64,000 nucleotides of DNA from a virus. The position numbers and the translations under genes are program-made. The first letter of the stretch is position 1; each line of letters begins with the position of its first letter. Shown here one piece after another: positions 974-39,025 of this stretch. The notes under the pieces were generated by a model. The model saw only the letters and a program-made list of their open reading frames with translations. It searched no databases and had not been told where the DNA came from. The stretch covers positions 32,001-96,000 of IMG/VR virus record IMGVR_UViG_3300031954_000001, one strand, 5' to 3'.

Positions 974-1882
974 CTATCTTGCGTTGATGTCGCCGATGCC
1001 GGACCAGGCCCAGCTGCCCTGCAGCCACTTCTTGCGGTACTTGCAAGGCTTCCTGGACCCGTTCGTGTAGGTGAGCTCTACCCACCAGTCCCTGCTGATC
1101 GAGATGCCTGTACCGCTTACCGCGCCGGACTGGCCAGGGTCGATACGACCCCAGTTTCCCCATCCTGGCGGGAAGTAGATAACCGACCCGTTCTCATCCA
1201 GGCCCGCGTAATGCACGCCGCCGTCCGGGTCTACCGCTGATGAGATGCACACGTCTGCTCCTGTTCCTGGCGGCGCGGGCTGGGCGGACGCGGGCCTGGG
1301 CCACTGGCCGTAGTCCGAAGCGTGCGCCTCGTCCCAGTCGATGGCGCCGCCGCACACGGTCACGTCGTTCTTCACCTGGCGGAGCTGAGCCCGGGGTTCC
1401 CACATGCCCTCGCTCCAGGCGTACGTCTGCCAGCCGTAGGTGATCCGGCCGGTGCCGAACATCCGCTGGCAGAACGTGTCGTCGCCGTACCCGCCCGTCC
1501 TGGCCAGCCCGATGACGGACTTGACCCCGTCAAAGTAGGCATCAGCCGCGGACTTTGCCGAGGAGGACATCGCCTCGTAATCCTGGTCGCACGGGAAGTA
1601 CACGGGCAGCCCGGCCATCCCCAGGCCCGCCACGAAGCTGTCCGCCTTGCGGGCGTCGGCCTGCCCCGCGGAGTAACCGCCGGCCATCTGCGTCTTGGAG
1701 TACTGGTAGACGACGCAGACCGTCATGCCGCGACTCAGGATCTTATCCAGCTCGGACTTGGACAGGTCCTTGGACGGGTCGCCGGAGCCGTAGCGGCACA
1801 GGAACCGCACGCCGTTGTTCCACAGGCAGTCCAGGTCAGGGCGATCCCACGAATAGTCCGCGCCCTTCGCCACCATCGCCAT
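974..1882 (-). CDS. Endolysin 1: DUF1906 (GH25-like) glycoside hydrolase plus C-terminal putative cell-wall-binding domain
   Basis: GADYS..., RY...K.LS..E, VYFPCD, WQTYAWS motifs; GGAGGAG RBS before ATG 1882; C-terminal ~92 aa shared with 38198..39025. Confidence 0.85.
   Translation of the reverse strand: MAMVAKGADYSWDRPDLDCLWNNGVRFLCRYGSGDPSKDLSKSELDKILSRGMTVCVVYQYSKTQMAGGYSAGQADARKADSFVAGLGMAGLPVYFPCDQDYEAMSSSAKSAADAYFDGVKSVIGLARTGGYGDDTFCQRMFGTGRITYGWQTYAWSEGMWEPRAQLRQVKNDVTVCGGAIDWDEAHASDYGQWPRPASAQPAPPGTGADVCISSAVDPDGGVHYAGLDENGSVIYFPPGWGNWGRIDPGQSGAVSGTGISISRDWWVELTYTNGSRKPCKYRKKWLQGSWAWSGIGDINAR
976..1252 (-). repeat. Duplicated C-terminal lysin domain, copy 1 (copy 2 at 38200..38473)
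   Basis: 47-nt exact match 999..1045 = 38223..38269; strong protein similarity across the domain. Confidence 0.95.
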
Positions 1883-1927
1883 GCCCGGGCTCCTCCGCAC
1901 GAGGGGGGTTTCGGGACCAGCCTACGC

Positions 1928-2242
1928 TCACCCGTAATCGCCGGCTTCAGTGTACCCGTACGGGAGCAGCGGGACCGGCGGCGGCGCAGGCGGCAGGGGC
2001 ACCTGCGCCGCGGCCTCGTTCCACACCCATTCCGGCCATTGCCAGACCCAGAACGGATCTTCCCACACCTTGGCCTGCCCGAGACCGTGACAGCGGGCGA
2101 TCCGCGCAGCAAACAACCCTAGCTGTTGCCTGAAGCCGAGGTCGGCGGGCAGGCCGCGGTGTGTTACGTACCAGAGTGCCGTGCAGACCCAGCCGTCAGG
2201 CAACAGTCTGCGATTGTCTGTAACCGGAGTGTAAGGGTTCAC
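1928..2242 (-). CDS. Hypothetical protein (Trp-rich)
   Basis: GTG start overlaps upstream TGA; GGGAG RBS. Confidence 0.6.
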   Translation of the reverse strand: MNPYTPVTDNRRLLPDGWVCTALWYVTHRGLPADLGFRQQLGLFAARIARCHGLGQAKVWEDPFWVWQWPEWVWNEAAAQVPLPPAPPPVPLLPYGYTEAGDYG

Positions 2243-2520
2243 GTGATGCTCCCACCGATGGGAAGGTTGCGGCCCATCGTGCCCGGCCCGCCCGTCGCGC
2301 CGTGCCCGGCCAGCCACCCGGCGCAGAACAGCGCCTCGCCGATCGCCATGTCGGCCTCCCGGTCCCGCTCGGGCAGCTCGGACCAGAACACCGTCCAGGA
2401 CGGGTAGTCCGCGACGTCGGGCTGGCACAGCGCCCAGCCGATCCACTTGCGGCGGACGCGCTCGCCCAGCTCCTCGCGGGTCACCCCGGCCAGGGCCATG
2501 ATCGTCTCGTTCACCGTCAT
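2239..2520 (-). CDS. Hypothetical protein, RyR-domain-like
   Basis: W...W....P.W...W.EL.E.DRE.D pattern; ATGA coupling. Confidence 0.55.
   Translation of the reverse strand: MTVNETIMALAGVTREELGERVRRKWIGWALCQPDVADYPSWTVFWSELPERDREADMAIGEALFCAGWLAGHGATGGPGTMGRNLPIGGSIT
2250..2263. promoter_or_regulatory. Dyad site TCCCACCGATGGGA (copy 1 of 6)
   Basis: Palindromic 14-mer overlapping the RBS of 1928..2242. Confidence 0.75.
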
Positions 2521-3821
2521 GGTCTCGTCTCCTCACAGGCTGCGAACTCGCCCAGGCCCAGGCGCTTGCGGGCCAGCGTGCACGCATCCGGGTCGTTCTC
2601 GGCGCCGACAGCCCGGAAGCCTTCCAGCCCGGCGGCCTGCAGCGTGGTCCCGGTACCGGCGAACGGGTCGATGAGCAGTCCGTCCGGGGGCGTGACCAGC
2701 CGGGCCAGCCAGCGCATCACCGCCAGCGGCTTCACCGCGATATGCGGGTTCACCCCGTCCACCGCGGGGCGCTCGGACTTCGGCGCCTTCGCCGCGTACA
2801 GGAACGGGGCATCCTGCGGCCCCCATTCCGTCTGCGGGAAGAACCGGGCATGCTCTCCCGCCAGGGCGACCGGGCAGCCGGGCTCGCACGACCCGTCGCA
2901 CCCGGGGAAATGGGTGAGGATCAGGTCCGGGGGCCAGCGTCCGGCCGAGCCGTCATAGTCCGTACGCTGCGCCCCGGCCTCCCAGGTGCCGTACGTGCCA
3001 TTCGCGCCCATCCGGTCCGAAGCATTCGAATACCTGGTGTGCTGGTTCTTGCCCTGCGATTCGGCCAGGTCCGCCGCGCTGGCGTGCGCGACCAGGCACC
3101 CGGCGATGTTCAGCGCCCCGGTCCCGTGCGCTAGCACGTTCGCGGCGACGGTGCCGTCCAGTGGCTTACGGGCGACGAGCACCGGCTCGATCGCGGGCTT
3201 GAGCGTGGTACCCCAGCCGTTCCAGCGGGCCGCCTCCGGCGTGGCGGGAACAGTGAGACTGCGACCGGCCGGCCGGACGTAGGCATCATCTGCGAACGTC
3301 AGTCCCTGCGTCGAGTGATCGGCTCGCGGCCTGCGGCTGGCGAACCGCCCCTGGCCGACGACCTCGCGCACCGCCCCCGCCGCCTTGTCGATCGCCTTGG
3401 ACACATCCAGCGATTTCGGGAACCCGCTCCCGTAAATCCAGGCGATGCTGTCCCGGATCTCAAACCCGGCCAGCCGGATGGACAGCCCCATCAGGTCCTG
3501 GGTGCGGGGGGCGGCGAACGCGAGCAGCCACGAGCCCGGCTTCAGCACCCGGTACACCTCGTCCCAGGCGCCGGGCGGCGGCACGAAGGCGTCCCACCCC
3601 CGGCCCATGAATCCCTTGCCGTCCGGGACGTGCAGCCGGTCCCCGGCCAGCCACGCGGCCAGCGCCTGCTCGGTCCGCTTGCGCGGATGCTCCGCCAGCC
3701 CGTACGGCGGGTCTGTGCAGCAGGCGTCCGCGCTGGCATCCGGCAGCGACCCGAGCACGGCCAGCATGTCCGTGCCGAACAGGGCGACCCGCCCGTCCTC
3801 GCTTGCCCAGCTACTTGCCAC
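2517..3821 (-). CDS. DNA methyltransferase (N4-C/N6-A, beta class)
   Basis: TDPPY near the N-terminus, DPFAGTGTT near the C-terminus; likely GTG start at 3821 overlapping the polymerase end. Confidence 0.9.
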   Translation of the reverse strand: MASSWASEDGRVALFGTDMLAVLGSLPDASADACCTDPPYGLAEHPRKRTEQALAAWLAGDRLHVPDGKGFMGRGWDAFVPPPGAWDEVYRVLKPGSWLLAFAAPRTQDLMGLSIRLAGFEIRDSIAWIYGSGFPKSLDVSKAIDKAAGAVREVVGQGRFASRRPRADHSTQGLTFADDAYVRPAGRSLTVPATPEAARWNGWGTTLKPAIEPVLVARKPLDGTVAANVLAHGTGALNIAGCLVAHASAADLAESQGKNQHTRYSNASDRMGANGTYGTWEAGAQRTDYDGSAGRWPPDLILTHFPGCDGSCEPGCPVALAGEHARFFPQTEWGPQDAPFLYAAKAPKSERPAVDGVNPHIAVKPLAVMRWLARLVTPPDGLLIDPFAGTGTTLQAAGLEGFRAVGAENDPDACTLARKRLGLGEFAACEETRP

Positions 3822-6800
3822 CGGAAATCTCCCCCCAGGTGCGGCCGGGGCCGGCCTTGTCGCAGATAACCGGGACACCACGGAAGTCACCGGTCATGGC
3901 CGCCTCGATCACGGGCACGGCCTCGTCCGCCTCGGCGTCGGGGAGCTCGAATACGAGCTCGTCGTGCACCTGCATCAGCAGGTACTTGTAGAGTGCCGGG
4001 TCCAGCCGGATCATGCACTCGCCCAGGATGTCCCGAGCCCCGCCCTGGCCCATCAGCGCCGGGGCGACGGTGTAGGCGTACCGCGGGTCGGCTTTCATCC
4101 GGCGGCCGAACCCGTTGTCCAGGATGCCGCCGCCGGCCGCGATGGCGCGGACCTGCTCGCGCCAGTCGCACAGCACCGGGAACTGCTCGGTCATCCCGTT
4201 GTCGAACCCGTAGGCCATGTCCGGGTCGACGCCGTCGCGGATCATCCGCTCCGGCCCCATGCCGTAATTCCAGCCGTGGCCCCGGGCCTTGGCGTCCTGG
4301 CGGCGCGGGTGGTGGCCGTCCTTGTCCCGCGGTGCCTCGCCGAACACCCGGGCGGCGATCTCGTCGTGCGCGTCGCGGCCGGGCTCGAACAGGGCCATGT
4401 AGGCGTGGTCCTGGCAGTGCCCGGCGATGGCCCGCATGTCCACCTGGGCCAGGTCGAATGACCACAGCGAGTACCCGGGCCGGGCGACGAAGATGTCCCG
4501 CTCCACGTGCCGGCCCTCGTGCTTGCCGAACACGGTCAGCCCCGGCTCGGTTACCGACCAGCGGCCGGACGCCTGCCGGAAGCTGATCGACGGGTGCACC
4601 CGCCCGTCCGGGCACATCCATGCCCTGGCGGTCTGGTAGACCGTCCGGGTGGTGGTCACGATATTCATGAACGTGATCATCGTGCGCAGCTCGGCCGGGC
4701 AGTCCTTGCGCGCGGTGATCGCCTCCAGCTCATCGGACCCGATGGCCAGCTTGCCGGTGTCGGTCTTCGGCGGATTGACGACGCCGAACCGGTCCCACTG
4801 CGCGGCCAGCCACGCCTGACCGTCCCCGGTAGTCAGCGGCGAGTCGAAATCGGTGTCTACGAAGTGTTCCTTGCCGCGGCCCCGGCCCTTGATCTCCGAA
4901 CGGCTCAGTGGCAGGTCCCACTGCTCGTGCAGGATCTGCATCGCCGCCCGCTTGCGGTCCTCGCCGGCCTGGTAGCGCTCCTCCAGCAGGACCTCATCGA
5001 CCCCCAGGCCGTTCAGCCGCATGTGCCCGGCGATCCGGGCCAGCTTGTGCTCGCGCGGCAGGTACTCATCGGAGTCATAGCACGCGCTCAGGAACGCGTA
5101 CACGGCCCGGGTGGCGTCCAGGTCGCCGTTCAGGTAGGCGCGGAACTCCTCGTCATCGACGGGAATCTTGTCGGCGTCGCCCCATTTCTTGGCCAGGTCC
5201 TTGAAGCTGTCGGTCTTGCCGGGCACGCCGATCCGCGCGGCCACCGCGTCCAGCCCGTACTTGTCCTCGCTGTGCCCCTTCTCCCGGGACCGCGGCGGCC
5301 AGTACTGCCGGGCGATCAGCTCGGTGTCGCGGGCCTTGGCGCAGAACGCGTCCCAGTCCATGCCCTCGTGCCAGGCCAGCGCCAGCCCGTCGAAGCCGAG
5401 GATGTTGTGGCCGTACACCTGGTCCGCCGCTCCCAGCATCGCCAGCAGCTGGCTCACGGGCACGATCAGGTCGGTCCCGGTCGGGCCGGTGATCCCGCAC
5501 AGCCGGACGAACCCGGTGCCGTCCGCCATGTGGTAGCCAGGCTCGCGGCGGAACATCTGGTCCGCCCAGCCGGTCTCCAGGTCGAATCCGAGCGTAAGCC
5601 CGGAAGCGACGACGGGAGGGATGGAGGGACATGCGGGATAGTTTCCGCCCGCGTCTTCTCGTGTGCGCACCCGCGCGTCCGCGCCCGCACGTACCGGACT
5701 GGGTATAGCTGAAACCTCCATTCCCTCCGTCCCCTCCTCACGTACGCGTACAGGCGCGTGCGGACGTGCGTACGCGCGTGCGCGCGAGGGTGATCCCTCC
5801 GTATCCCTCCCGCCCAGGTCAGGTACCGTTTCCGTTTCCGGTCCGGCGGGAGGGATCGGGAGGGATGAAATCTGCGACCCGTCGTCGTCGCGGGTCTGGA
5901 CGAACCACTTCTGGACCTTGCGGTGCCCGATACCCATCTTGATGAGCCGGAACTGCCCGAACCAGCGGGACGCGACCCGGCTGTAGGCCGCGCCCATGCT
6001 CCGGGCGAAACCGCGCTCGGCCGGGTCGTCCAGGCCGGGCGGGCTGTCCCAGGTCCCGCCCGATTCGGCGGCTCGCTGCGCGACATCCAGCACGGTGAAC
6101 TCCCCGCTCCGGAAATGACCGGACAGCCAGGCCAGGTGCTCGGACCAATAGCCGCCGGAGCTGTCGGACTCGCGCCGCCGCTCGGTCAGCCCGGCCAGGA
6201 ACCCGGGTACGCCGGCGTGGTGCAGGATCCCGGACATCATCCGGTCCCACCCCTCGAAACTGCCGAGCGAAGCGCCCCGCTTATGCTCCGGGCACCCGGC
6301 CGCCCACCAGGACCGGAGCACGATCAGCGCGGCGGTGACCAGCTCGGGCCGGTTGTCCAGCGTCCAGGTGCGCAGCTCGGAGTGAGTGAACGACTCAGCG
6401 AGCCGGTCCTCGGGTTCCGGCACGTCCGGGCGCAGGTCGATGAAGTACGACCGCCGGGACATGTCCGCCGGGACGTCGATGTTGTTGCCCAGCGCGATCC
6501 AGGTGACCCGGTTCGGGAAGCTGGCCAGCTTGGATACGCCGAGGATCCGGTCGGTGTAGGTGAGCGAGGTGATCGCCCGGGTCAGCGCGGACCCCGACAG
6601 CTTGACCACTTCATCGAAGACCAGGAACGGCGCGCCGGCCCGGAACGCCGAGGTGATCTGCTTGCGGTTCTCCTCATCGCCTGCCTTGTCCGAGGCCCAG
6701 GGCAGTGGCGGGATCGCCTCCCCGGTGACCATCAGCGAGATGCAGTCGGCCAGCAGGTTCTTGCCGACACCGGGCTGCAGGCCCGACACCACGGCGAGCG

Positions 6801-8115
6801 GAACCAGCGGGACCAGGCCGCGGATGAACGAGGTGAGCACCAGCGCCAGCGCGTTGGCCCGGCTGGACTGCTCGGGAAACGGCATGTCTCCCAGCCAGTT
6901 ACCGAGCAGGAACTGCACGGCCCAGGCGACCTGCTCGGGCGTCGGCGCATCCGGGATGTCCAGCCGGTCCATGCCGGAGTTGCCGATGGCCAGGAAGGTG
7001 CGGCTGGACTCGTCGTAGCCGTTCTTGAAGCACACCGACCCGTCCGAGCGGATGAACGGGGTGCGGCTGATCCGGTCCAGCGGCACGAAGTCATCGCCCG
7101 AGGACAGCACCGCGCCCATCGTCTGCACTTCCGGCCAGGCCGGCTCGAACGTGCCCGGGCTGTTCGCGCCCGGCGGCTTGTACTTGCAGGTGAACGCGGC
7201 CTCAGCGATCCAGCGGGCGAGTGAGTCCCGGTCCAGCGGCTCGGTGGATACGCTGAACGTTCTCGGGTCAGGGGCCGTGTAACGCAGCCTGGTCATCGCC
7301 CCGCCGAAATTGAACAGGTCGCGGCCATCCCACAGCTCCCGCATCCGGGCCAGGATCGAGTGGACGACGACGACCCGGTCCTCGTTGACCACGATCACCG
7401 GCCGCCCGTTCGTCTCCGGCTCCTGGTCGCCCAGCTTCCGGTGCGACGGCCGGCGCTCGGCCGGCTTCGGCTGCGCCCTGGCGAGCAGCTTAGCCATCTT
7501 GTCGGTCCGCCGGCCCTCATCGAACCGGGCCAGGTAATCGTCAATGCCGTCCGTGCCCCACGCGAGCGACGGGACGAATCCGGGAACCGCGTCCTCGGAT
7601 TCCAGCTCGGCGGCCATGCCTTCGGCGGACTCGTAGACGTTCAGGTTGTCGCCGGCGTCGGCGTCGATCAAGATGATCACCGGGTGCCCGGCGAACCGGT
7701 GGAACGCCATCGCGGACAGGTCACGCCAGCCGTCCACGCCGGCGATCCCGTAGACCGCGTACTCGGACGGCGCGTAGCTGGCCACGGCGAGGGACTGCTT
7801 AGTGCCCTCGGCGATGATCACCGGCCCGGCCTTGCTGTCAGCCGGGAGCGGCCGGAGCGCCCACATGTGCAGCGGGTGCCCGGCTTCCCACAGGTACTTA
7901 GGCGTGCCCTGCGGCAGGCCGCCCTCGGGTTCGGGCCACTGGCGGGTCTGCCTGGTCAGCATGTTGTTGTCGCGCCACGGGAAAACGACCCGGTCGCCGT
8001 CCGAGCTGACATCCGCTGCCGCCAGGACCTTGTCGGTGATGGCGTGGGCGCGCAGGTATGCCAGGTGAGTCTCCGAGAGACGGGATTGCACCAGCTGCGT
8101 GTCGTCGTTGCTCAT
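3811..8115 (-). CDS. Fused Toprim primase / P-loop (SF3-like) helicase / family-A DNA polymerase with 3'-5' exonuclease
   Basis: IIAEGTK, DADAG..N, GIDDYL (Toprim); GLQPGVGKN, LVFDEV, GNN, DMSRR (NTPase); FDLETG, HNILGFD, YLNGD (ExoI-III); DLAQVDMR, RQDAKARGHGWNYG, QVHDEL (Pol motifs A/B/C). Confidence 0.92.
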   Translation of the reverse strand: MSNDDTQLVQSRLSETHLAYLRAHAITDKVLAAADVSSDGDRVVFPWRDNNMLTRQTRQWPEPEGGLPQGTPKYLWEAGHPLHMWALRPLPADSKAGPVIIAEGTKQSLAVASYAPSEYAVYGIAGVDGWRDLSAMAFHRFAGHPVIILIDADAGDNLNVYESAEGMAAELESEDAVPGFVPSLAWGTDGIDDYLARFDEGRRTDKMAKLLARAQPKPAERRPSHRKLGDQEPETNGRPVIVVNEDRVVVVHSILARMRELWDGRDLFNFGGAMTRLRYTAPDPRTFSVSTEPLDRDSLARWIAEAAFTCKYKPPGANSPGTFEPAWPEVQTMGAVLSSGDDFVPLDRISRTPFIRSDGSVCFKNGYDESSRTFLAIGNSGMDRLDIPDAPTPEQVAWAVQFLLGNWLGDMPFPEQSSRANALALVLTSFIRGLVPLVPLAVVSGLQPGVGKNLLADCISLMVTGEAIPPLPWASDKAGDEENRKQITSAFRAGAPFLVFDEVVKLSGSALTRAITSLTYTDRILGVSKLASFPNRVTWIALGNNIDVPADMSRRSYFIDLRPDVPEPEDRLAESFTHSELRTWTLDNRPELVTAALIVLRSWWAAGCPEHKRGASLGSFEGWDRMMSGILHHAGVPGFLAGLTERRRESDSSGGYWSEHLAWLSGHFRSGEFTVLDVAQRAAESGGTWDSPPGLDDPAERGFARSMGAAYSRVASRWFGQFRLIKMGIGHRKVQKWFVQTRDDDGSQISSLPIPPAGPETETVPDLGGRDTEGSPSRARAYARPHAPVRVREEGTEGMEVSAIPSPVRAGADARVRTREDAGGNYPACPSIPPVVASGLTLGFDLETGWADQMFRREPGYHMADGTGFVRLCGITGPTGTDLIVPVSQLLAMLGAADQVYGHNILGFDGLALAWHEGMDWDAFCAKARDTELIARQYWPPRSREKGHSEDKYGLDAVAARIGVPGKTDSFKDLAKKWGDADKIPVDDEEFRAYLNGDLDATRAVYAFLSACYDSDEYLPREHKLARIAGHMRLNGLGVDEVLLEERYQAGEDRKRAAMQILHEQWDLPLSRSEIKGRGRGKEHFVDTDFDSPLTTGDGQAWLAAQWDRFGVVNPPKTDTGKLAIGSDELEAITARKDCPAELRTMITFMNIVTTTRTVYQTARAWMCPDGRVHPSISFRQASGRWSVTEPGLTVFGKHEGRHVERDIFVARPGYSLWSFDLAQVDMRAIAGHCQDHAYMALFEPGRDAHDEIAARVFGEAPRDKDGHHPRRQDAKARGHGWNYGMGPERMIRDGVDPDMAYGFDNGMTEQFPVLCDWREQVRAIAAGGGILDNGFGRRMKADPRYAYTVAPALMGQGGARDILGECMIRLDPALYKYLLMQVHDELVFELPDAEADEAVPVIEAAMTGDFRGVPVICDKAGPGRTWGEISGGK
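5614..5867. repeat. Four paired GGAGGGA-type repeats around purine/pyrimidine-alternating tracts; candidate replication origin
   Basis: Pairs at 5614-5630 (fwd), 5722-5737 (rev), 5793-5811 (rev), 5848-5867 (fwd). Confidence 0.6.
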
Positions 8116-8226
8116 CAGCGGTCCCTAGCGGATATAATCGAGTCGGACGTTGACGTGGCTGTCGGCGTGGTCATGCAGGTGGCGATCGGACCGGCTTCGG
8201 GCAGTGGAGCCGGTCCCCGCTGCGTT

Positions 8227-8823
8227 TCAGGCGGCAGGCGCATCGCTCACCACCACCACCTCGTCGTAGTTCTGCGCGAAGTTTCGTACACAACAGCGCA
8301 CCGCGTCAGCTCTTGATTGAGCTGTACCAGCCGCCACCAGGGCGTCGATCACGCTCAGCTCGCGGTAGCCGAGCCAGACCATGACGCGGCCGGTGTCGCC
8401 CTCGTTTGCGTTCCCGTGGCTCAGGCGGCAGGCTTTACCGCCTTGCTTACTTGAGTTGCAAGAAACGCACAGGACCTGGTATCCGTCCGGGAACCCCTGG
8501 GCGATGAGCCAGCGGTAGAACCCCGTACCGGCGCGCTTGTAACCAAACAACTCGATCCGGTGAATGCGGCCGTCGCCGTTTTCGTGATCAATCGACAGGT
8601 CTTCCGTCGCACCGCAGCAGGCGCAAGCGCGCCCGTAGTGATCGAGTACCCGGTCCCGGACTCGTGCCGTTTCAAGGATCCCACGGCGTCTCATGCATTC
8701 CCGGCATGCGGGCTTCAGCCCGGTTCGCCTGCTCCTGTCTTTGTTGAACTCAGTGACCGGGAGCGGGTTCGGTCCGGTATGCCCTGGATCGGAACATAGC
8801 TTCATCTGCTCAGCCGGTGGCAT
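8227..8823 (-). CDS. HNH endonuclease with N-terminal Zn motif and C-terminal ribbon-helix-helix-like domain
   Basis: CACCG...LSIDH...LCVSCNSSK; C-terminus RVMVWL...IDALVAAG..SRADAVR. Confidence 0.8.
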   Translation of the reverse strand: MPPAEQMKLCSDPGHTGPNPLPVTEFNKDRSRRTGLKPACRECMRRRGILETARVRDRVLDHYGRACACCGATEDLSIDHENGDGRIHRIELFGYKRAGTGFYRWLIAQGFPDGYQVLCVSCNSSKQGGKACRLSHGNANEGDTGRVMVWLGYRELSVIDALVAAGTAQSRADAVRCCVRNFAQNYDEVVVVSDAPAA

Positions 8824-9349
8824 CGCGCACCGCCCGGGACCTGGTCAGCGGGTCGGGCAGCCCGCAGTTACGCACCGCGCAGTACAGGCAGTGCCAGGCC
8901 GCGCTCTTGGCGTGGCGCATCGGCGCGGCCGAGCACACGTCCAGGAGCCCGGACGCGGCCAGCCGCGCGTCGCCCGCGTCCACCCAGGGCTTGACCTCGG
9001 ACGCCCGGCGGACGAAGACGGGAATGCCATCGCCGCGGCAGGCCGCTTCCATGCCCTGCACCTGGCGCTGGATCCGGCCCGGGCTGGTACCGTGCAGCCC
9101 GGACGCCTTGGGCCGGTTGTCGAACGCCTCGATCTGAACGGCACTGATCGCCGACGCGAGGCAGACACCGGGCCGGCCCGTGGTGTAGGAGCGGATGAGC
9201 ATGGCCAGCAGCTCGGTGGCGCCGCCGTAGCCATCCGCCTGCCAGGCCCGCGCCCACCGGCACTTGCGCGTGCCAGGTTCCCAGCCGGCCATCAGGAACC
9301 CGGCCACGTCTCCGGGGTCGATGCCGAGCACGATGATCTGGTTGCTCAT
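8810..9349 (-). CDS. RuvC-like Holliday junction resolvase
   Basis: VLGIDPG, VQIEAF, H...A..H motifs; ATGA-coupled start at 9349. Confidence 0.75.
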   Translation of the reverse strand: MSNQIIVLGIDPGDVAGFLMAGWEPGTRKCRWARAWQADGYGGATELLAMLIRSYTTGRPGVCLASAISAVQIEAFDNRPKASGLHGTSPGRIQRQVQGMEAACRGDGIPVFVRRASEVKPWVDAGDARLAASGLLDVCSAAPMRHAKSAAWHCLYCAVRNCGLPDPLTRSRAVRDATG

Positions 9350-30200: not shown

Positions 30201-30212
30201 GAGGAGGCAGTC

Positions 30213-30817: not shown

Positions 30818-30879
30818 GAACGACCCGGTGTCGGTCCCGCTGCGGCCGGCGTCGGGCGCTAAAGGAACAGGAGACAGAC

Positions 30880-33350: not shown

Positions 33351-33377
33351 CAAAAGAAACAGGAGATAGGAGGAGAC

Positions 33378-33602
33378 ATGGGATACCCCGATGATCGCGG
33401 GAACCAGAGCGGGCACAAGAACGCGCGCAGCGCGCACGGCCAGGAGACTGAACAGGGAGACAGCATCATGAAGTACCTGCAAGCAATCGGCATCACCGCC
33501 AATGCCCTGGGCCGGTGGGTCTTCGGTTCCTGGACCGAACAGCAGGCCCGCGACGAGGTCAACCGCGCCCGCGCGCTGATCGGCCGTCAGGCGATGCCAT
33601 GA
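33378..33602 (+). CDS. Hypothetical protein (alternative start 33468)
   Basis: AGGAGGAG RBS. Confidence 0.5.
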   Translation: MGYPDDRGNQSGHKNARSAHGQETEQGDSIMKYLQAIGITANALGRWVFGSWTEQQARDEVNRARALIGRQAMP

Positions 33603-33829
33603 GCCCGCTGGCTAACGAGATCGTCAAAGCGACCGGGTGCCCGGACTGGATCGCCGAAGGTATCGCCCACCTGCCCCCGGGCGGCGCCGGCAACTGGTAC
33701 GAGCCGGACGCCACCTACGAACGCGGCACCGACTGGCGTGCCGAGGCGAGCCACTTCGGCGTGCGGGTCGTGCGGACCACCCGCTGGCACATCGGCTCGC
33801 CGGAGCAGGACCACCAGGAGCAGCCGTGA
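33599..33829 (+). CDS. Hypothetical protein
   Basis: ATGA coupling. Confidence 0.55.
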   Translation: MSPLANEIVKATGCPDWIAEGIAHLPPGGAGNWYEPDATYERGTDWRAEASHFGVRVVRTTRWHIGSPEQDHQEQP

Positions 33830-34104
33830 TCCCGCGTTACGATGACCCGGCCGAGACCGCCCGGCAGATCGCCGCGGAGGTCATCACCTGGCGCAGGCGG
33901 CTGGACAAAGAGACCGAAGCTGGCGTCCAGGCGCGTATCGCCGGCGCCAGGCGGGCTCCCGGCCGCGGGGTCAAGCAGCTCATGGACGACCGCCGCGTGG
34001 TCGAGGGCATGGTCCGCGCGCTCGCGTACGTCATCGGCCACCCGGGCGAGTACTGGGCCGCCGAGCAGTTCATCAGGGAACAAGAACAGGAGAACGCGAC
34101 ATGA
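33826..34104 (+). CDS. Hypothetical protein
   Basis: GTGA coupling, AGGAG RBS. Confidence 0.6.
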   Translation: MIPRYDDPAETARQIAAEVITWRRRLDKETEAGVQARIAGARRAPGRGVKQLMDDRRVVEGMVRALAYVIGHPGEYWAAEQFIREQEQENAT

Positions 34105-34745
34105 ACACCACCAACACGGCACGCGCCGCACAGCGGAACAAGGCAGCCGCGACCCGCCGCCGGACCGCGGCGATCAAGGAACTCGGGCTGATCATCGACG
34201 TGGCCACCCAGCACAAGGGCCTGCTGGAAAGCGACCCGCCGCAGGTCCCGGAGTCCACCTTCATCAACCGGGCGGTCAAGTACGAGGGCCTGCTCGGGGA
34301 GATGCAGCTGCTGGCCCTGCTGGCCGAGGGCGCGGAGATGCCCGGAGATGACGCGGACGCCGACGACGGCAAGGTCACCGTGGGCCGGGACGACCTGCTG
34401 CCGCTGCTGCAGGCGATCCGCTCCATGTTCCCCGCCACGGACGGTAACCAGCCGCTGGACCGGCTGGAGGCCGCGGCCGGCATCGAGACATCCGGACTGC
34501 AGGCCGTGCCCGCGGCACCTGCACCCGCACCCGAGTCCCCGGCTGTGCCCGAGCCCGAGGCGGCACCTGTGCCCGAGCCCCAGGCGGCGGTCACCAGCTG
34601 CCCGACGTGCGGTTCGCCGGACCCGGACCTGCACCCGTCCACGGGTGAGGGCGGTGAGGTTTCCAGCCTCTGCCCCGACCCGTTCCACAGCCCGGTCCCG
34701 GAGACCGTCCAGGCGGCCTACGCGAAGCCGGTGCAGCCGTCGTGA
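34101..34745 (+). CDS. Hypothetical protein with C-terminal CxxC...C...H motif
   Basis: GAACAGGAG RBS. Confidence 0.7.
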   Translation: MNTTNTARAAQRNKAAATRRRTAAIKELGLIIDVATQHKGLLESDPPQVPESTFINRAVKYEGLLGEMQLLALLAEGAEMPGDDADADDGKVTVGRDDLLPLLQAIRSMFPATDGNQPLDRLEAAAGIETSGLQAVPAAPAPAPESPAVPEPEAAPVPEPQAAVTSCPTCGSPDPDLHPSTGEGGEVSSLCPDPFHSPVPETVQAAYAKPVQPS

Positions 34746-35038
34746 CCGGGGTCAGCCTGCACTACGGGCCGGGCGCCTGGACCGACGAGCACGGCGTCAT
34801 GCGGTGGAAGAAACGGTACCGGACCGAGGACGGCCGCGACTGGAACGAGCCGGCGACCGGCCAGGAGATCGCGGACCTGCCAGGCGACGCGCTGGTCATC
34901 GTCGGCCCGAACGGCAGCCCGAAACCCAAGAGGGAGTACGACGGCCTGGTCATCGCCGGGTCGCCGTTCCTGCCGGCGATCGCGCACCTGATCCCGGTCT
35001 ACATCGAGGGGGAGGACCCGGCTTATGCCGAGCATTGA
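34742..35038 (+). CDS. Hypothetical protein
   Basis: GTGA coupling. Confidence 0.6.
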   Translation: MTGVSLHYGPGAWTDEHGVMRWKKRYRTEDGRDWNEPATGQEIADLPGDALVIVGPNGSPKPKREYDGLVIAGSPFLPAIAHLIPVYIEGEDPAYAEH

Positions 35039-35312
35039 GGTAATCCCGCACTACGAGGCCGGACACGGCATCCGCCCGCCGAACAGGCGCGGGCGCTATC
35101 GTGCGGTCGCCTGGGAGCTCGTCCCGGGTGGCGGCATGGAGCTGTGGCACTGCGACCACGACCACGCGCCCGGTGTCCGGAAGGTTCAGGACGCCAGCGA
35201 AACCGAACGCGAGGCTGCCGAGCAGTGCGCGAGAGACTGGCTGGCCGGGCGAATCCGCGACGGGCACCTGCACCCGCTGCCGGTGATCCGGGAAGGGGAG
35301 TGGGACCAGTGA
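35025..35312 (+). CDS. Hypothetical protein (C.H.H motif)
   Basis: GGAGG RBS. Confidence 0.6.
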   Translation: MPSIEVIPHYEAGHGIRPPNRRGRYRAVAWELVPGGGMELWHCDHDHAPGVRKVQDASETEREAAEQCARDWLAGRIRDGHLHPLPVIREGEWDQ

Positions 35313-35560
35313 GCTGGACGACGACCGACGTGGAAGCGTGGCCGGACGAATTCCCGCACGACCACCTCTCCGGGCCACTGTGCGCCGGGGCGGCCGGCTG
35401 GGAGAACGCGGACTATTGCGGCCACGACACGTGCGAGGCCATCGACTTCGGCGGCTGCATGGGCTGCCGGGCCGAGGAGGCCAGCTGGCTGGACTTCGCA
35501 GCCCGCGCCGAGCGCCTGATGGCGGAGCGGAGCGGCGTGATCAAGGTGAGCGTGCCGTGA
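35309..35560 (+). CDS. Cys-rich hypothetical protein
   Basis: GTGA coupling. Confidence 0.55.
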   Translation: MSWTTTDVEAWPDEFPHDHLSGPLCAGAAGWENADYCGHDTCEAIDFGGCMGCRAEEASWLDFAARAERLMAERSGVIKVSVP

Positions 35561-35739
35561 GGGAGACCGAGCATGACGAGCCGCCCCCGCCGGGCACGAT
35601 CACGCGGTGGTTCATGCCGATCGGCCGGGAAGGCCGGGCGATTACCGGGCCCGAGGCGGACGACGGCATGACGGCCGGGCAGATTGCCTTGTGCAATCAG
35701 TGTTCGCGGCCGGACCGGCTCGTCTACCATGACTGCTAG
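35557..35739 (+). CDS. Hypothetical protein
   Basis: GTGA coupling. Confidence 0.45.
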   Translation: MRETEHDEPPPPGTITRWFMPIGREGRAITGPEADDGMTAGQIALCNQCSRPDRLVYHDC

Positions 35740-35845
35740 TGCTGGCGGGATCAGCGGCCTGGCGCTGGCCATCCTGGGAGGGATCGCCGTGCTCGTCATC
35801 CTCGCCGGCCTGGCGCTGGCCCTGTGGGACACCCGGCGCCCGTAG
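35729..35845 (+). CDS. 38-aa single-TM peptide
   Basis: MTASAGGISGLALAILGGIAVLVILAGLALALWDTRRP. Confidence 0.5.
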   Translation: MTASAGGISGLALAILGGIAVLVILAGLALALWDTRRP

Positions 35846-35850
35846 CAGGC

Positions 35851-35935
35851 ACGCCCTGGCCGGCTGACGCGGCCCGCGCGGCATCGTGGTGATGGGATCA
35901 CGACTTCCGGCGCGCGGGCCGCCCGCCAGGGGCGT
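35851..35935. terminator. Long hairpin where the rightward and leftward arms converge
   Basis: GCGGCCCGCGCG/CGCGCGGGCCGC core with nested outer and inner stems. Confidence 0.6.
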
Positions 35936-36124
35936 CCGTCCGTCAGGCGCGCTCTCCCTTCAGCTGCCGGCTACGGGCACTGATGCGCGGGCTGGTCCGA
36001 GCCCGGCCCGGGGCCTGCGCCGTCGCAGGACTGATCCCCCGGCAAGATTCGTCAACCGTGAGCGAAGCATACCGCCTGCCCGGTGCATCGCATAGCGAGA
36101 GCACGTGAACGCTGCCTGTCAGTT

Positions 36125-36277
36125 TCAGCTCGCGCAGGTGGCGCACGGCCGGGCGATCTTACGGGCCGCCCGTACCGTGACCTGCTCGGGCTCGGACCGC
36201 CGGCCCGCGCACCACCGGTTCAGGTGGTAGACGCGGGGACATCCGCGCCGCCGCGGGGACAGCCAGACGGGCCTCAT
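36125..36277 (-). CDS. 50-aa Zn-binding peptide (YH...C...PCxxC, Ada-metal-binding-like)
   Basis: Not in track; GGGGAG RBS; MRPVWLSPRRRGCPRVYHLNRWCAG...RPCATCAS. Confidence 0.65.
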   Translation of the reverse strand: MRPVWLSPRRRGCPRVYHLNRWCAGRRSEPEQVTVRAARKIARPCATCAS

Positions 36278-36278
36278 G

Positions 36279-36755
36279 TCAGCTCCCCTGCTGCTGAGCC
36301 CGCCAGCGTTTCACCCGGCAGGTATTTCCGCAGACTGTGGCGTCGATACGCAACGCAGTGATGTCCGCGCCGCATACCTCGCAGCCGCGCTTGCCCAGAG
36401 CTGCGCGCCGATCGGCGCATTCCTTGTGGTATCCCGTTCCGATTACCCATTCGCCGTGCTGGTTGCGGATCGTCGCACCGGGGACTGCGTGCCTGAGCTG
36501 GTGGTCTCGCGCTGACAGTGCTTCCAGGTTGTCCGCGTTGTTCTGTGTCTTGTCGCCATCGACTTGATGGTGAACATGTTTGGACGGATCGGTAAGAAGG
36601 CCGGCTTCCCAGGCTATGACGCGGTGCTCGAACACGTATCCGTCTTTGCGGGCGAGTGGGTGATCCGGTAGGTACAAGTCCACGTACCCATCTGAACGAA
36701 CCCGGCGTTTGGAGCCGTAGCCAGGGCGTTTCCCGCCCTTTCCCCCGATTGCCAT
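36279..36755 (-). CDS. HNH endonuclease
   Basis: GYV.EHR...VHH...DKTQN..DNLE.L...H...H; C-terminal CxxC...CxxxC. Confidence 0.85.
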   Translation of the reverse strand: MAIGGKGGKRPGYGSKRRVRSDGYVDLYLPDHPLARKDGYVFEHRVIAWEAGLLTDPSKHVHHQVDGDKTQNNADNLEALSARDHQLRHAVPGATIRNQHGEWVIGTGYHKECADRRAALGKRGCEVCGADITALRIDATVCGNTCRVKRWRAQQQGS

Positions 36756-36772
36756 ACATGCAGTTTACCGTT

Positions 36773-37612
36773 TCAGCAGCCATCGTAGGGCGCCCAGTCT
36801 GAGTACCCGCGAGAAGCGACCGCGTTGGCGAAAACCTGGTTCTGCTCGGCTGCGCTGGCGTGCCCGTAGTCTGCCGGGTTACCGCCGCTCGCGGCCCAGG
36901 TTGAGGCCGAGAACTGGTAGAGCCCGTAATGCCCGTTCGGGTTCCATGCCTGCGCGTTGCCTCCCGATTCGCGAGCGATAATGCACGCCTGCCGGGAGCC
37001 GGACATCCCGCCGCCTCCGCCGCCGGAGCTGGCCGGCGCGGCCTGCTGGACGGGAGCTGAAGCCGGGGCCTGGCTGACCGGGGCTGCGGAAGACCGGGTG
37101 CCGCAGGCCACGTCCCAGCCGTCGCCGTCACCGTCACCGCAGAAGTTCGGGAATCCGTAGCTGACGCCCCACACCTTCCCGCCGGATCCGCCGCTGACCC
37201 GCACCGCAGACACCGTGCCGGCTGACCGGTAGCAGGAGACGTGCCACAGCGTGGCCCCGGCGAGGATGAGGTCAGGATCGGCGATGCCGTTGGCGGCGGC
37301 CAGCCCGGTGTAGTCGGCGGGGTTCCCGCACAGCCGGGCCGCGATCCCGGACAGGGTGTCGCCGAGCCGGATCCGGTACGCCGACGCGGCCTGGGCCGCG
37401 GATGGCCGGGTGACCGCGGTCAGGACGGCGGCGCCGCGGGGCGTCCCGGCGGGGCGGGGCGGTGCCGTCACCGCGGTCGCCGTGAGGGCGGCGGGAAGGG
37501 CCGCGGCGATCAGGGCCGGGACGGCGGCCAGCCAGGCCAGCCGCAGGTGCCCGCGCCGGGAAAAAAGCCTGCCGGCAGGCAGCGCGCGATGATGCGCGGA
37601 GGCGGTATTCAT
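36773..37612 (-). CDS. Secreted LysM + resuscitation-promoting-factor-like transglycosylase
   Basis: Signal-like N-terminus; LysM GDTLSGIA...N.I.DPDLI; Rpf CIIARESGGN...GLYQF...TW...EQ. Confidence 0.88.
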   Translation of the reverse strand: MNTASAHHRALPAGRLFSRRGHLRLAWLAAVPALIAAALPAALTATAVTAPPRPAGTPRGAAVLTAVTRPSAAQAASAYRIRLGDTLSGIAARLCGNPADYTGLAAANGIADPDLILAGATLWHVSCYRSAGTVSAVRVSGGSGGKVWGVSYGFPNFCGDGDGDGWDVACGTRSSAAPVSQAPASAPVQQAAPASSGGGGGGMSGSRQACIIARESGGNAQAWNPNGHYGLYQFSASTWAASGGNPADYGHASAAEQNQVFANAVASRGYSDWAPYDGC

Positions 37613-37731
37613 CTGTATCCTCATGGCAGAGATGGCCGCCAGGCGGGGTGATTCTCAAGGTCGGCCCCGCGAGGCGCTTGTCCTCACCGACGCTAGCAGG
37701 ATGGCTTCGGCTGCTCTAGCTTTCGCGGTGT

Positions 37732-37773
37732 AAAAGAGGGAGCCCTGGGCCTCTGCTGGCCCTGGGCTCTCTC
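37732..37773 (-). terminator. Intrinsic terminator-like hairpin with U-tract
   Basis: GAGAGAGCCCAGGGCC-loop-GGCCCAGGGCTCCCTC-TTTT on the minus strand. Confidence 0.65.
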
Positions 37774-37869
37774 GCTGCCACAGGCGTTACGGCTGAGATG
37801 GCTCGTATCCGGCCCGGCTGGCTGCCGCGGGCATGGTCTTACGGTACCGCTGGGGCGCAGGAGGCGGCG

Positions 37870-38172
37870 TCAGCGGGACCCGGGCCATGCCCCGCCGACC
37901 GCGCCGGGGATCCGGAACCCGGGCAGGATCACGCAGTCATCCGGCATGTGCCCGTCCGGCGGGTCCCGCACGAACAGCTCGAACCCCTGGCCGCGGCGCA
38001 GCAGGAAGTCCTCGGCGGGCACGGCGAGCCACGCCACGCAGCCGGGCTCGTCCTGGTCCTCGTCGCGCAGCGCGATGCAGCGGATATCCCGGCCCCCGGT
38101 GCGCAGGACGATGCCCGAGGGCGGCTCCGGGTTCTCCGGCACCTGCGGTCGCCTGAACAGCCGCCACCTCAT
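37870..38172 (-). CDS. Hypothetical protein
   Basis: TACCAT-N7-ATG, probably leaderless. Confidence 0.55.
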   Translation of the reverse strand: MRWRLFRRPQVPENPEPPSGIVLRTGGRDIRCIALRDEDQDEPGCVAWLAVPAEDFLLRRGQGFELFVRDPPDGHMPDDCVILPGFRIPGAVGGAWPGSR

Positions 38173-38197
38173 ACTGCCGATGGTAGCTCCCGGGATG

Positions 38198-39025
38198 TCA
38201 CCGCGCGTTGACGTCCCCGATCCCGGACCAGGCCCAGCTGCCCTGCAGCCACTTCTTGCGGTACTTGCAGGGCTTCTTGGACCCGTTGGTGTAGGTAATC
38301 TCAACCCACCAGTCGGAGCTGATGGAGATGCCGGCGCCGCTCAGGGCACCGTTCTGGCCCGGGTCTATGGCTCCCCAGTTTGCCCACCCGGGCGGGAAGT
38401 ACAGGACCTGCCCGCTCTCGGACAGGCAGGCGTAATGCGTAACGCCATCGGGGTCATTCGCTCCTGATACCACGTTGTCTCCTATCGCTTGCGGTGCCGG
38501 GGCCGAGCCTCCGCCGCCGCCCCAATTCTTGGCCTTGTCGATGACGACATCCATCGGGAACCCGGACCCGCAGTCGCTGTGACCCGACCCCCAGGAGCCG
38601 AAGTTGACGTGCTGGCAGATCCCGCGCACATCGGGGTTCTGTGCCTGGGTGCTGCTCAGCAGGGTCCACGGAACGCTGTACTTGTCCACCATGTAGCGGC
38701 ACCACTCCGCCGCGTTGTCCAGCAGGACCGGCTTGGACAGCCAGGTGTCCCGCGACCACGAGGCGTACGCGCACATCTCCAGGGACAGGCAGTACGGGTT
38801 GGCGTTGCCCTGGGTCCACGCCTTGTAGTTCTCGTAGACGTACGCGCCGAGGGTCCGCTTGTACTGGTCGGCGCCATGATGGCTTGAGCACTGCGCGGAC
38901 GGGTTGGCGAACCAGCTGCCCAGCGACTCGATCGTCATCGCGCCTTCGGTGGTGTGGAAGACGATCTTGTTGTACGGCCCGCGCGTGGTGGAGTAGTGCT
39001 GAGACGGGTACCACAGCTCGTCCAT
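38198..39025 (-). CDS. Endolysin 2: Zn-dependent N-acetylmuramoyl-L-alanine amidase plus shared C-terminal domain
   Basis: IVFHTTEG, SSH, LE.C, QH...HSDCG; adjacent to holin. Confidence 0.9.
   Translation of the reverse strand: MDELWYPSQHYSTTRGPYNKIVFHTTEGAMTIESLGSWFANPSAQCSSHHGADQYKRTLGAYVYENYKAWTQGNANPYCLSLEMCAYASWSRDTWLSKPVLLDNAAEWCRYMVDKYSVPWTLLSSTQAQNPDVRGICQHVNFGSWGSGHSDCGSGFPMDVVIDKAKNWGGGGGSAPAPQAIGDNVVSGANDPDGVTHYACLSESGQVLYFPPGWANWGAIDPGQNGALSGAGISISSDWWVEITYTNGSKKPCKYRKKWLQGSWAWSGIGDVNAR

What the first reader, a model, noticed from the sequence alone, without database searches (positions are those of the whole stretch)
974..39025. Two distant endolysins share a C-terminal domain, each with an identical internal translation start: a possible mix-and-match multimeric lysin
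Seen: the DUF1906 lysin (974..1882) and the amidase lysin (38198..39025) end in a homologous 91-92-aa domain. In both, the domain begins at an in-frame GTG (1252 and 38473) preceded by AGGAG and a 5-nt spacer (1262-1258 and 38483-38479). These RBS-like stretches use A-ending codons (GGA ACA GGA GCA; ATA GGA) that are rare in these GC-rich genes, while the surrounding linkers differ. The domain reads as two ~45-aa beta-blade-like repeats rich in Trp. Knowledge: some Firmicutes phage lysins (CTP1L, Lys170) make their binding domain from an internal start and form hetero-oligomers; two-blade lectins such as RSL trimerise into six-bladed propellers. Inference: free two-blade subunits could complete a propeller, and the shared domain could let glycosidase and amidase chains co-assemble.
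Basis: partly seen in the sequence, partly recalled or inferred. Interest (0 to 1): 0.82.

Follow-up and report, generated by a model that had tools for sequence, protein, structure and literature searches.

The report
Two lysins share split-propeller anchor
Two different cell-wall-cutting enzymes of a large uncultured soil phage end in the same small two-blade sugar-binding-like domain, and a conserved internal ribosome site and start codon probably also make that domain as a free 10-kDa piece, a new variant of the known two-products-from-one-gene endolysins.

Summary
Lysin 1 (974..1882, minus strand; Rv2525c/DUF1906 glycosidase-like) and lysin 2 (38198..39025, minus strand; Amidase_2-type) share a 91-92-aa C-terminal domain (CTD), 79% identical. 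Each CTD is preceded by AGGAG, 5 nt and an in-frame GTG, built from codons used 3-6% of the time.

Comparison supports a real internal start. All 10 amidase-CTD lineages with DNA carry a Shine-Dalgarno (SD) site plus ATG or GTG there, with a local GC3 dip. Two glycosidase-CTD lineages lack the start codon, and there the SD and the dip are gone too. The motif matches this phage's own ribosome-site consensus, A[CT]AGGAG: 34 copies, about 30 at gene starts.

AlphaFold gives two four-stranded blades (pLDDT 93). The best structural matches are propeller lectins: PLL Z 10.7, BambL 8.7, RSL 8.6. No Pfam or PHROG family matches.

In relatives the two enzymes are adjacent genes or one fused amidase-CTD-glycosidase protein, and CTDs cluster by genome. 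Where the glycosidase gene lacks the start, the same genome's amidase gene keeps it. This fits shared subunits but does not prove them.

Oligomerisation and co-assembly could not be tested, because the complex predictor was closed. The scan noted a similar case (single blade) on another phage.

The parts
974..1882 (-). Lysin 1, 302 aa: Rv2525c/DUF1906 glycoside-hydrolase-like domain, Pro/Ala-rich linker, then the CTD
   Evidence: Pfam PF08924 at E 1.2e-21, 78 bits against a cutoff of 27. PHROG endolysin phrog_13480 at 9e-31. The true start, ATG 1882, has a GGAGGAG SD.
1337..1828 (-). Catalytic (glycosidase-like) domain of lysin 1
   Evidence: Extent of the Pfam PF08924 match, converted to window coordinates.
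1258..1264 (-). Internal ribosome-binding site ACAGGAG of lysin 1 (core AGGAG at 1262-1258)
   Evidence: Read. Duplex with the anti-SD is -6.9 kcal/mol. It matches the phage-wide consensus A[CT]AGGAG.
1250..1252 (-). Internal in-frame GTG start of lysin 1; its product would be 92 aa, about 10 kDa
   Evidence: A gene caller on another contig called exactly this 92-aa protein (P0069).
974..1252 (-). CTD of lysin 1: two-blade beta-propeller-like domain (stop codon included)
   Evidence: AlphaFold pLDDT 93.3 with eight strands in two blades. Structural matches to PLL, BambL and RSL lectins.
38198..39025 (-). Lysin 2, 275 aa: Amidase_2-type N-acetylmuramoyl-L-alanine amidase, Gly-rich linker, then the CTD
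   Evidence: PHROG endolysin families at 3e-22. The family profile hits the PlyL and XlyA amidases at E 2e-8. Twelve homologues hit PF01510. The start ATG has a GGGAGG SD, -10.3 kcal/mol.
38528..39025 (-). Amidase catalytic domain of lysin 2 (residues 1-166)
   Evidence: Full-length AlphaFold model: residues 1-166 are ordered and the linker at 170-181 has pLDDT below 50.
38479..38485 (-). Internal ribosome-binding site ATAGGAG of lysin 2 (core AGGAG at 38483-38479)
   Evidence: Read. Duplex -8.5 kcal/mol, ranked 8 of 258 positions in the gene. Matches the consensus.
38471..38473 (-). Internal in-frame GTG start of lysin 2; its product would be 91 aa
38198..38473 (-). CTD of lysin 2 (stop codon included)
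   Evidence: 79% identical to the lysin 1 CTD. Folds as two blades in the full-length model.
39302..39568 (-). Holin-like 88-aa protein with two hydrophobic helices, two genes upstream of lysin 2
   Evidence: Translation, read directly. No family search was run.
39026..39298 (-). 90-aa protein between the holin-like gene and lysin 2. Its charged tail motif recurs in the membrane protein that precedes the amidase in locus L003.
   Evidence: Translations, compared by eye.

Best explanation
Each lysin gene probably gives two products. One is the full-length enzyme. The other is a 10-kDa copy of the CTD, started at the internal SD+GTG.

The CTD is a wall-binding module made of only two propeller blades. 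It most likely has to associate with further copies to close a propeller. By analogy with RSL and BambL that would be three chains giving six blades; four chains giving eight blades is not excluded. The active lysin would then be one catalytic chain plus free CTD subunits, as in LysIME-EF1 and CTP1L but with a different fold.

My odds for each step:
- the internal start is used in the amidase gene: about 0.8
- the internal start is used in the glycosidase gene: about 0.6
- the CTD works as an oligomeric propeller: about 0.55

What is shown: the sequence features, their conservation, and the predicted fold. What is inferred: that the short protein is made, its stoichiometry, and wall binding.
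For: 1. Geometry and strength. AGGAG, 5 nt, GTG sits in frame at the linker-CTD joint in both genes. SD duplex energies are -6.9 and -8.5 kcal/mol, in the top 4% and 2% of codon positions. The median best SD within the first 50 codons of this phage's genes is -7.75.

2. Phage-specific signal. A[CT]AGGAG occurs 34 times in the 108.8-kb record, and about 30 copies lie 5-9 nt before a start codon that opens a high-GC3 frame. The lysin 1 site ACAGGAGCAGACGTG nearly equals the stereotyped ACAGGAGACAGACATG.

3. Conservation.
- In 18 aligned amidase homologues down to 25% identity, the joint always has M or V.
- With DNA in hand, 10 of 10 amidase-CTD lineages have an SD plus ATG or GTG, at -6.9 to -10.8 kcal/mol and mostly the best SD in the gene. 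The linker amino acids that encode the SD differ between lineages.
- GC3 falls to 0.43-0.57 at the site.

4. Internal control. The glycosidase-CTD genes of L009/L010 and of the 190-kb relative G001 have no start codon at the joint. They also have no SD and no GC3 dip: 0.71 against 0.73 for the gene, and 0.93 against 0.92.

5. The same amidase clade carries SD+ATG before three other, unrelated C-terminal domains (L020/L021, L030, L023).

6. Five distant relatives in the protein library are 89-117-aa proteins that begin exactly at this position.

7. Fold.
- AlphaFold gives pLDDT 93.3.
- VIA-align gives PLL Z 10.7 (rmsd 1.8 over 86 residues), BP39L 10.4, Kordia fucose lectin 9.9, AofleA 9.5, BambL 8.7 and RSL 8.6.
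- Foldseek also finds the designed two-blade Pizza fragments.
- Language-model neighbours are PLL-like, DUF346 and fucose-lectin clusters, scoring 0.90-0.91.
- BambL is a six-bladed propeller made of three protomers (PMC5478714).

8. Precedent. LysIME-EF1 is one full-length chain plus three CBDs made from an internal RBS (PMC7098653). Internal starts are predicted in about half of the endolysins of Gram-positive phages (PMC9430671).
Against: - There is no protein-level evidence. Translation from the GTG is inferred only.
- The lysin 1 SD is of middling strength (-6.9), and GTG is a weaker start than ATG.
- The lysin 1 CTD is 87% identical to an amidase-borne CTD (P0024). Its internal start could therefore have arrived recently with the module and not yet decayed. 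Two of the four or five glycosidase lineages do without it.
- mRNA structure around the sites is only slightly weaker than average, at the 19th-25th percentile.
- The CTD matches no lectin family by sequence.
- Z scores of 8-10 for a 90-residue all-beta repeat lie only modestly above the generic propeller background of Z about 8.
- An isolated two-blade unit could instead pair through full-length chains, without any free subunits.
- The genomic context of the stand-alone relatives could not be inspected.
Confidence: 0.6

Rival explanations
1. Shared-subunit heteromer. Free CTD, made mainly from the amidase gene, completes propellers on both enzymes. Amidase and glycosidase chains can then sit in one complex, as the non-covalent equivalent of the fused amidase-CTD-glycosidase protein found in a relative. 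This extends the best explanation rather than replacing it.
For: - In L009/L010 the amidase-CTD gene (AGGAG, 5 nt, ATG) is followed directly by a glycosidase-CTD gene with no internal start.
- In the 190-kb relative G001 the amidase-CTD gene has AGGAGGG, 6 nt, ATG. Its glycosidase-CTD gene, 54 kb away, has Ala (GCC) in place of Met and no SD.
- P0030 is a natural 483-aa amidase-CTD-glycosidase fusion on a 68-kb contig.
- On the CTD tree, glycosidase- and amidase-borne CTDs pair by genome or lineage, with support of 100/100, 100/100 and 99/97.
- The two window CTDs share a 47-nt identical tract in blade 2.
Against: - Adaptation of both CTDs to the same host wall ligand, with module exchange by recombination, explains the clustering by genome without any co-assembly.
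- Glycosidase-CTD chains could form homo-oligomers on their own.
- In this window the glycosidase gene lies in the replication module, 37 kb from the lysis cassette, so its time of expression is unknown. No promoter was recognised.
- The within-genome CTD pairs are only 70-79% identical.
- No complex model could be made.
Confidence: 0.28
2. Hitch-hiking relic in lysin 1. The internal start works in amidase genes, but in the glycosidase gene it is a recently imported, unused leftover of module shuffling.
For: - The lysin 1 CTD is closest (87%) to an amidase-borne CTD.
- Glycosidase lineages L009/L010 and G001 have lost the start, SD and GC3 dip entirely, so selection on it is weaker or absent in glycosidase genes.
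- Homology between the two window genes begins at about the SD.
Against: - The site is intact in every member of the lysin 1 lineage seen (L008, P0022, P0023).
- It keeps rare A-ending codons against a GC3 of about 0.9.
- It matches the phage's own extended RBS consensus, not merely AGGAG.
Confidence: 0.15
3. No initiation at all. The rare codons and SD-like sequence act as a translational pause at the domain boundary, helping the catalytic domain fold before the CTD emerges.
For: Clusters of rare codons at domain linkers are a known phenomenon (general knowledge). The GC3 dip spans about 14 codons.
Against: - A pause does not need an in-frame ATG or GTG, yet M or V is kept at this position in all amidase homologues.
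- When the start codon is lost, the SD and the rare codons are lost with it.
- Stand-alone relatives begin exactly at this residue.
Confidence: 0.07

Closest known systems
Endolysins with an internal start before the wall-binding domain: LysIME-EF1 and Lys170 (Enterococcus phages), CTP1L, CD27L and CS74L (clostridial phages)
   Same: One catalytic domain, a linker, and then an in-frame SD plus start codon directly before the binding domain. The short product is the binding domain alone. In LysIME-EF1, one full-length chain carries three extra binding domains (PMC7098653; PMC4777826; PMC9430671).
   Different: The binding domain here is an unassigned two-blade propeller fragment rather than the folds of those enzymes. 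The host is probably an actinobacterium with a GC-rich genome. Two separate lysin genes with different catalytic domains carry the same binding domain, and in some relatives only one of them keeps the start. Nothing here has been shown at the protein level.
Mycobacteriophage Ms6 LysA (Lysin384/Lysin241) and phage 2638A endolysin
   Same: These are lysin genes, of an actinobacterial phage (Ms6) and a staphylococcal phage (2638A), with an in-frame internal start (PMC9430671). The fused relative P0030 (amidase-CTD-glycosidase) would give a short form that still carries a catalytic domain, as these do.
   Different: In Ms6 and 2638A the start lies between two catalytic domains. In the window genes it lies before the binding domain only.
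RSL (Ralstonia solanacearum) and BambL (Burkholderia ambifaria) fucose lectins
   Same: They are about 90-aa proteins made of two four-stranded blades. Structural match is Z 8.6-8.7 with rmsd 2.3-2.4 over 81-82 residues. Three protomers close a six-bladed propeller (PMC5478714).
   Different: There is no detectable sequence relationship. The ligand is unknown. Here the domain is tethered to enzymes. Trimerisation was not tested.
PLL-family seven-bladed propeller lectins of Photorhabdus (Pfam Beta-prop_PLL PF26607 / DUF346 PF03984)
   Same: This is the best structural match: 5c9o at Z 10.7, rmsd 1.8 over 86 residues, with Foldseek TM 0.74. The nearest language-model clusters also carry these families.
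   Different: PLL proteins are single chains of seven blades. The CTD has two blades and does not reach any Pfam threshold.
PlyC (streptococcal phage C1 lysin)
   Same: A multimeric lysin in which several copies of a small binding subunit carry the catalytic chain (general knowledge; PMC13560338 is listed).
   Different: PlyC uses two separate genes and an eight-membered ring of a different fold. Its catalytic chain has no binding domain of its own.

Membership tests
Two-polypeptide endolysins with an internal start before the binding domain (LysIME-EF1 / CTP1L type) | In-frame start codon with an SD in the linker between the catalytic and binding domains | tested here: met
Two-polypeptide endolysins with an internal start before the binding domain (LysIME-EF1 / CTP1L type) | Internal start conserved at the same position in homologues | tested here: met
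   Present in 10 of 10 amidase-CTD lineages with DNA. M or V is at the joint in all 18 aligned amidase homologues. Absent in two glycosidase-CTD lineages.
Two-polypeptide endolysins with an internal start before the binding domain (LysIME-EF1 / CTP1L type) | The short binding-domain polypeptide is actually produced | not testable with these tools
   Needs expression or initiation profiling.
Two-polypeptide endolysins with an internal start before the binding domain (LysIME-EF1 / CTP1L type) | The full-length chain and free binding domains form a defined oligomer | not testable with these tools
RSL/BambL two-blade fucose lectins (Pfam PF07938 Fungal_lectin) | Two four-stranded propeller blades in about 90 residues | tested here: met
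   AlphaFold model, pLDDT 93.3. BambL Z 8.7 and RSL Z 8.6.
RSL/BambL two-blade fucose lectins (Pfam PF07938 Fungal_lectin) | Sequence match to the family profile | tested here: not met
   No Pfam family at E up to 1 for the CTD or for any of the 30 homologues' CTDs. No sequence hit in the Protein Data Bank at E up to 10.
RSL/BambL two-blade fucose lectins (Pfam PF07938 Fungal_lectin) | Trimer closing a six-bladed propeller, with sugar sites within and between protomers | not testable with these tools
No ligand assay is available.
PLL-like beta-propeller (Pfam PF26607 / DUF346 PF03984) | Sequence match to the family profile | tested here: not met
   There are only fold-level and language-model resemblances.
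Amidase_2 (PF01510) N-acetylmuramoyl-L-alanine amidases, for lysin 2 | Sequence match to the family | tested here: met
   The window protein alone misses Pfam. Its family profile hits the PlyL and XlyA amidases at E 2e-8, and 12 homologues hit PF01510 at up to 4.9e-21. PHROG endolysin families hit at 3e-22.
Rv2525c_GlyHyd-like / DUF1906 (PF08924), for lysin 1 | Sequence match above the curated cutoff | tested here: met
   E 1.2e-21, 78.1 bits against a cutoff of 27.2.

The most novel reading that the evidence does not exclude
The two-blade CTD is a common currency subunit. Free copies made from the amidase gene's internal start assemble with the CTDs of both full-length enzymes into closed propellers. 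The result is a heteromeric lysin that carries amidase and glycosidase activities on one multivalent wall anchor. Fused, adjacent and 37-kb-separated gene layouts would then be interchangeable ways of building the same machine. More generally, incomplete propellers combined with internal starts would be a recurrent design rule for wall anchors of soil actinophage lysins.
Probability: 0.25. Interest if true: 0.8.

Novelty: new variant of a known kind. Interest (0 to 1): 0.62.

Why it matters
Endolysins that make a second product from an internal start are known, mostly from phages of Bacillota. Why extra binding domains are needed is often unclear. Here the fold itself supplies a reason: two blades cannot close a propeller, so several copies are required.

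The domain belongs to no curated family. It is rare, with 16 clusters among 1.8 billion representative proteins. It is shared by two enzymes that cut different bonds of the wall.

If the subunits really mix, one small gene product would tie two catalytic activities into one particle. That would be a new way to build multifunctional lysins and a ready-made scaffold for engineered ones.

The natural control is also useful. Start codon, ribosome site and rare codons are lost together in some lineages. This offers a clean comparative test for finding genuine internal starts in GC-rich genomes.

Tried and rejected
The genomic context of the five stand-alone CTD-like proteins (P0005, P0006, P0007, P0011, P0015) could therefore not be seen.
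- Scans for those stand-alone proteins in viral and genome contigs found nothing. Whether they are real separate genes remains open.
- A word-based search for close stand-alone CTDs found none.
- The first genome-contig scan with the CTD found nothing. No GenBank phage record carries the CTD.
- An alignment of distant CTDs was too diverse for the locus finder.
- Pfam, PHROG and Protein Data Bank sequence searches gave no family for the CTD.
- An internal promoter as the source of a short product was considered. No sigma-70-like promoter or terminator was found in or near either gene, though actinobacterial and phage promoters may escape that scan.
- mRNA unfolding at the internal starts is unremarkable and was not used as evidence.
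- Two adjacent prophages as the reason for two lysins was considered and set aside. The stretch between them holds replication genes (a primase-helicase-polymerase fusion, a helicase, a methyltransferase) on the strand of lysin 1 and tail genes next to lysin 2. A 190-kb, 90%-complete relative has the same two-lysin layout.
- Chance was rejected on the conservation data.
Full report
**What is there.** The window is bases 32001-96000 of a 108,794-bp IMG/VR virus record with 70% G+C. CheckV estimates the record at about half of a genome. A relative found later is 190 kb and 90% complete.

Lysin 1 (974..1882, minus strand, 302 aa) has an Rv2525c/DUF1906 glycoside-hydrolase-like domain: PF08924 at E 1.2e-21 and a PHROG endolysin family at 9e-31. 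Its real start is ATG 1882, behind a GGAGGAG site. The upstream GTG at 1900 has no SD.

Lysin 2 (38198..39025, minus strand, 275 aa) is an Amidase_2-type enzyme:
- PHROG endolysin families match at 3e-22.
- The family profile hits the PlyL and XlyA amidases at 2e-8.
- Twelve homologues hit PF01510.

Lysin 2 lies at the end of the tail-gene block, behind a holin-like 88-aa two-helix protein. Lysin 1 lies 37 kb away, at the end of a block with a DNA methyltransferase, a primase-helicase-polymerase fusion and a helicase. The record therefore looks like one large phage, not two prophages.

**The observation.** The two proteins are unrelated except for their last 91-92 residues, which are 79% identical. 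AGGAG, five bases and an in-frame GTG occur at 1262-1250 and at 38483-38471.

The codons that build the sites are rare in this record: GGA 6% of Gly, ACA 3% of Thr, GCA 5% of Ala, ATA 3% of Ile. Third-position G+C drops to 0.50 and 0.43 around the sites, against 0.87 and 0.89 for the genes. These are the lowest 1.7% and 0.4% of windows.

The two sites probably descend from one block, because DNA homology between the genes begins at about the SD. They are therefore not two independent events.

**Is it a real start?** Four lines of evidence say yes.

First, the sites match the phage's own ribosome-site style. The 7-mer A[CT]AGGAG occurs 34 times in the record, and about 30 copies sit 5-9 nt before a start codon that opens a high-GC3 frame. 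The usual form is ACAGGAGACAGAC followed by ATG. Lysin 1 has ACAGGAGCAGAC followed by GTG.

Second, the site is conserved.
- The CTD family is rare, with 16 clusters among 1.8 billion representatives.
- Every amidase homologue has Met or Val at the joint.
- Wherever DNA could be fetched, an SD precedes an ATG or GTG. The lineages are L003, L005, L011, the L010 amidase, L017, the G001 amidase, L029 and the window genes. Duplex energies run from -6.9 to -10.8 kcal/mol, usually the best in the gene, and GC3 dips to 0.43-0.57.
- The linker residues that encode the SD differ from lineage to lineage, so the nucleotides are being kept, not the amino acids.

Third, there is a natural control. The glycosidase-CTD genes of L009/L010 and of G001 have no start codon at the joint (one codon deleted, or Met replaced by Ala). 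There the SD and the GC3 dip are gone as well.

Fourth, related proteins begin exactly at this residue. Five distant relatives are stand-alone proteins of 89-117 aa. Gene callers elsewhere called the CTD alone from this start (P0069 and P0063).

The same amidase clade also has SD+ATG before three unrelated C-terminal domains. The internal start is therefore a habit of these lysins, not of this domain alone.

**What the domain is.** AlphaFold, given 30 homologues, predicts eight strands in two four-stranded blades with pLDDT 93.3. In the full-length amidase model the linker (residues 170-181) is disordered, and the CTD begins just after the GTG codon.

Full-library structural alignment puts propeller lectins on top:

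| Match | Z |
|---|---|
| PLL (rmsd 1.8 over 86 residues) | 10.7 |
| BP39L | 10.4 |
| Kordia fucose lectin | 9.9 |
| AofleA | 9.5 |
| BambL | 8.7 |
| RSL | 8.6 |

An eight-bladed propeller made of four two-blade pieces also appears, at Z 7.3. Foldseek agrees and adds the designed two-blade Pizza fragments. Language-model neighbours carry the PLL-like, DUF346 and fucose-lectin families.

By sequence the CTD belongs to none of these families. BambL closes a six-bladed propeller from three protomers (PMC5478714).

A two-blade unit cannot close a propeller alone. This gives a structural reason for making extra copies. Whether three or four chains assemble could not be tested, because the complex predictor was closed.

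**Two enzymes, one anchor.** The same modules occur in three layouts:
- 37 kb apart, in this window; G001 has a similar layout, 54 kb apart
- as adjacent genes, in L009/L010; in L023/L024 amidase and glycosidase genes are also adjacent but lack this CTD
- fused into one 483-aa amidase-CTD-glycosidase protein, P0030

The two enzymes are therefore functionally linked.

On a tree of CTDs, glycosidase- and amidase-borne copies pair by genome or lineage, with support of 100/100, 100/100 and 99/97. The window copies share a 47-nt identical tract. Where the glycosidase gene lacks its own start, the amidase gene of the same genome keeps a strong one.

This is what a shared subunit would predict. Common adaptation to one wall ligand would predict the clustering too. 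I give co-assembly about one chance in four.

**Comparison with what is known.** Internal starts in endolysin genes are established: LysIME-EF1, Lys170, CTP1L, CD27L, Ms6 LysA and 2638A. They are predicted in about half of the endolysins of Gram-positive phages (PMC7098653, PMC4777826, PMC9430671). The principle is therefore not new.

Three things are new:
- the anchor, an unassigned two-blade propeller fragment whose incompleteness explains the need for extra copies
- its use by two enzymes of one phage
- the pattern of starts kept in one gene and lost in the other

A text search found no paper describing a propeller-type wall-binding domain on an endolysin. The top match in the viral structure library is a CHAP-domain protein of an uncultured phage with a similar C-terminal fold.

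The scan has noted a parallel case on another phage (a single PLL-like blade with internal starts, e1-5935633) and a GYW-repeat propeller anchor (e1-2113730). I did not test either.

**Limits.**
- No protein-level data exist.
- The host is unknown. An actinobacterial host is inferred from lysin relatives and G+C content.
- The stand-alone relatives could not be inspected.
- The timing of lysin 1 expression is unknown.

Noticed in passing
window 36773-37624 (-): A 283-aa protein with a signal-peptide-like N-terminus, a LysM-like stretch and a C-terminal transglycosylase-like domain (PHROG transglycosylase 1.6e-11), just downstream of lysin 2. It is a possible third wall-active protein of the lysis region, resembling resuscitation-promoting factors.
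   Followed up: partly
whole record; examples at window 26582, 27836, 30867, 34086: The ribosome-binding sites are stereotyped. A[CT]AGGAG occurs 34 times in 108.8 kb and about 30 copies lie 5-9 nt before a gene start, often as ACAGGAGACAGAC then ATG. This makes a good start-codon marker for annotating this phage.
   Followed up: yes
L020:3001-3762 and L021:3001-3747: Related amidases carry a different C-terminal domain of about 80 aa, with two repeats containing GYW and AFGDA-like motifs. It is again preceded by a purine-rich SD and ATG. It may be two blades of the GYW propeller family noted elsewhere in the scan, which would be a second split-propeller anchor. Its fold was not predicted.
   Followed up: partly
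L023:3001-3651 and L024: The glycosidase gene ends six residues after an ATG at the position where the CTD would begin, so the CTD is lost. The amidase gene just upstream carries a third kind of C-terminal domain behind GAGGAGG, 5 nt, ATG.
   Followed up: partly
window 974-1100 versus 38198-38320: The second-blade halves of the two CTD coding regions are about 93% identical, with a 47-nt perfect tract. The first-blade halves are about 72% identical. This may be gene conversion between two genes 37 kb apart.
   Followed up: partly
window 3811-8115 (-): A single 1434-aa frame joins primase, helicase-like and family-A DNA polymerase parts (PHROG hits). Another reader of this scan has also noted it.
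   Followed up: no
protein P0012 (324 aa, metagenome): A longer protein with three weak matches to the CTD and a repeat pattern typical of propellers. It is a possible single-chain relative that would show the native blade number. It was not folded.
   Followed up: no
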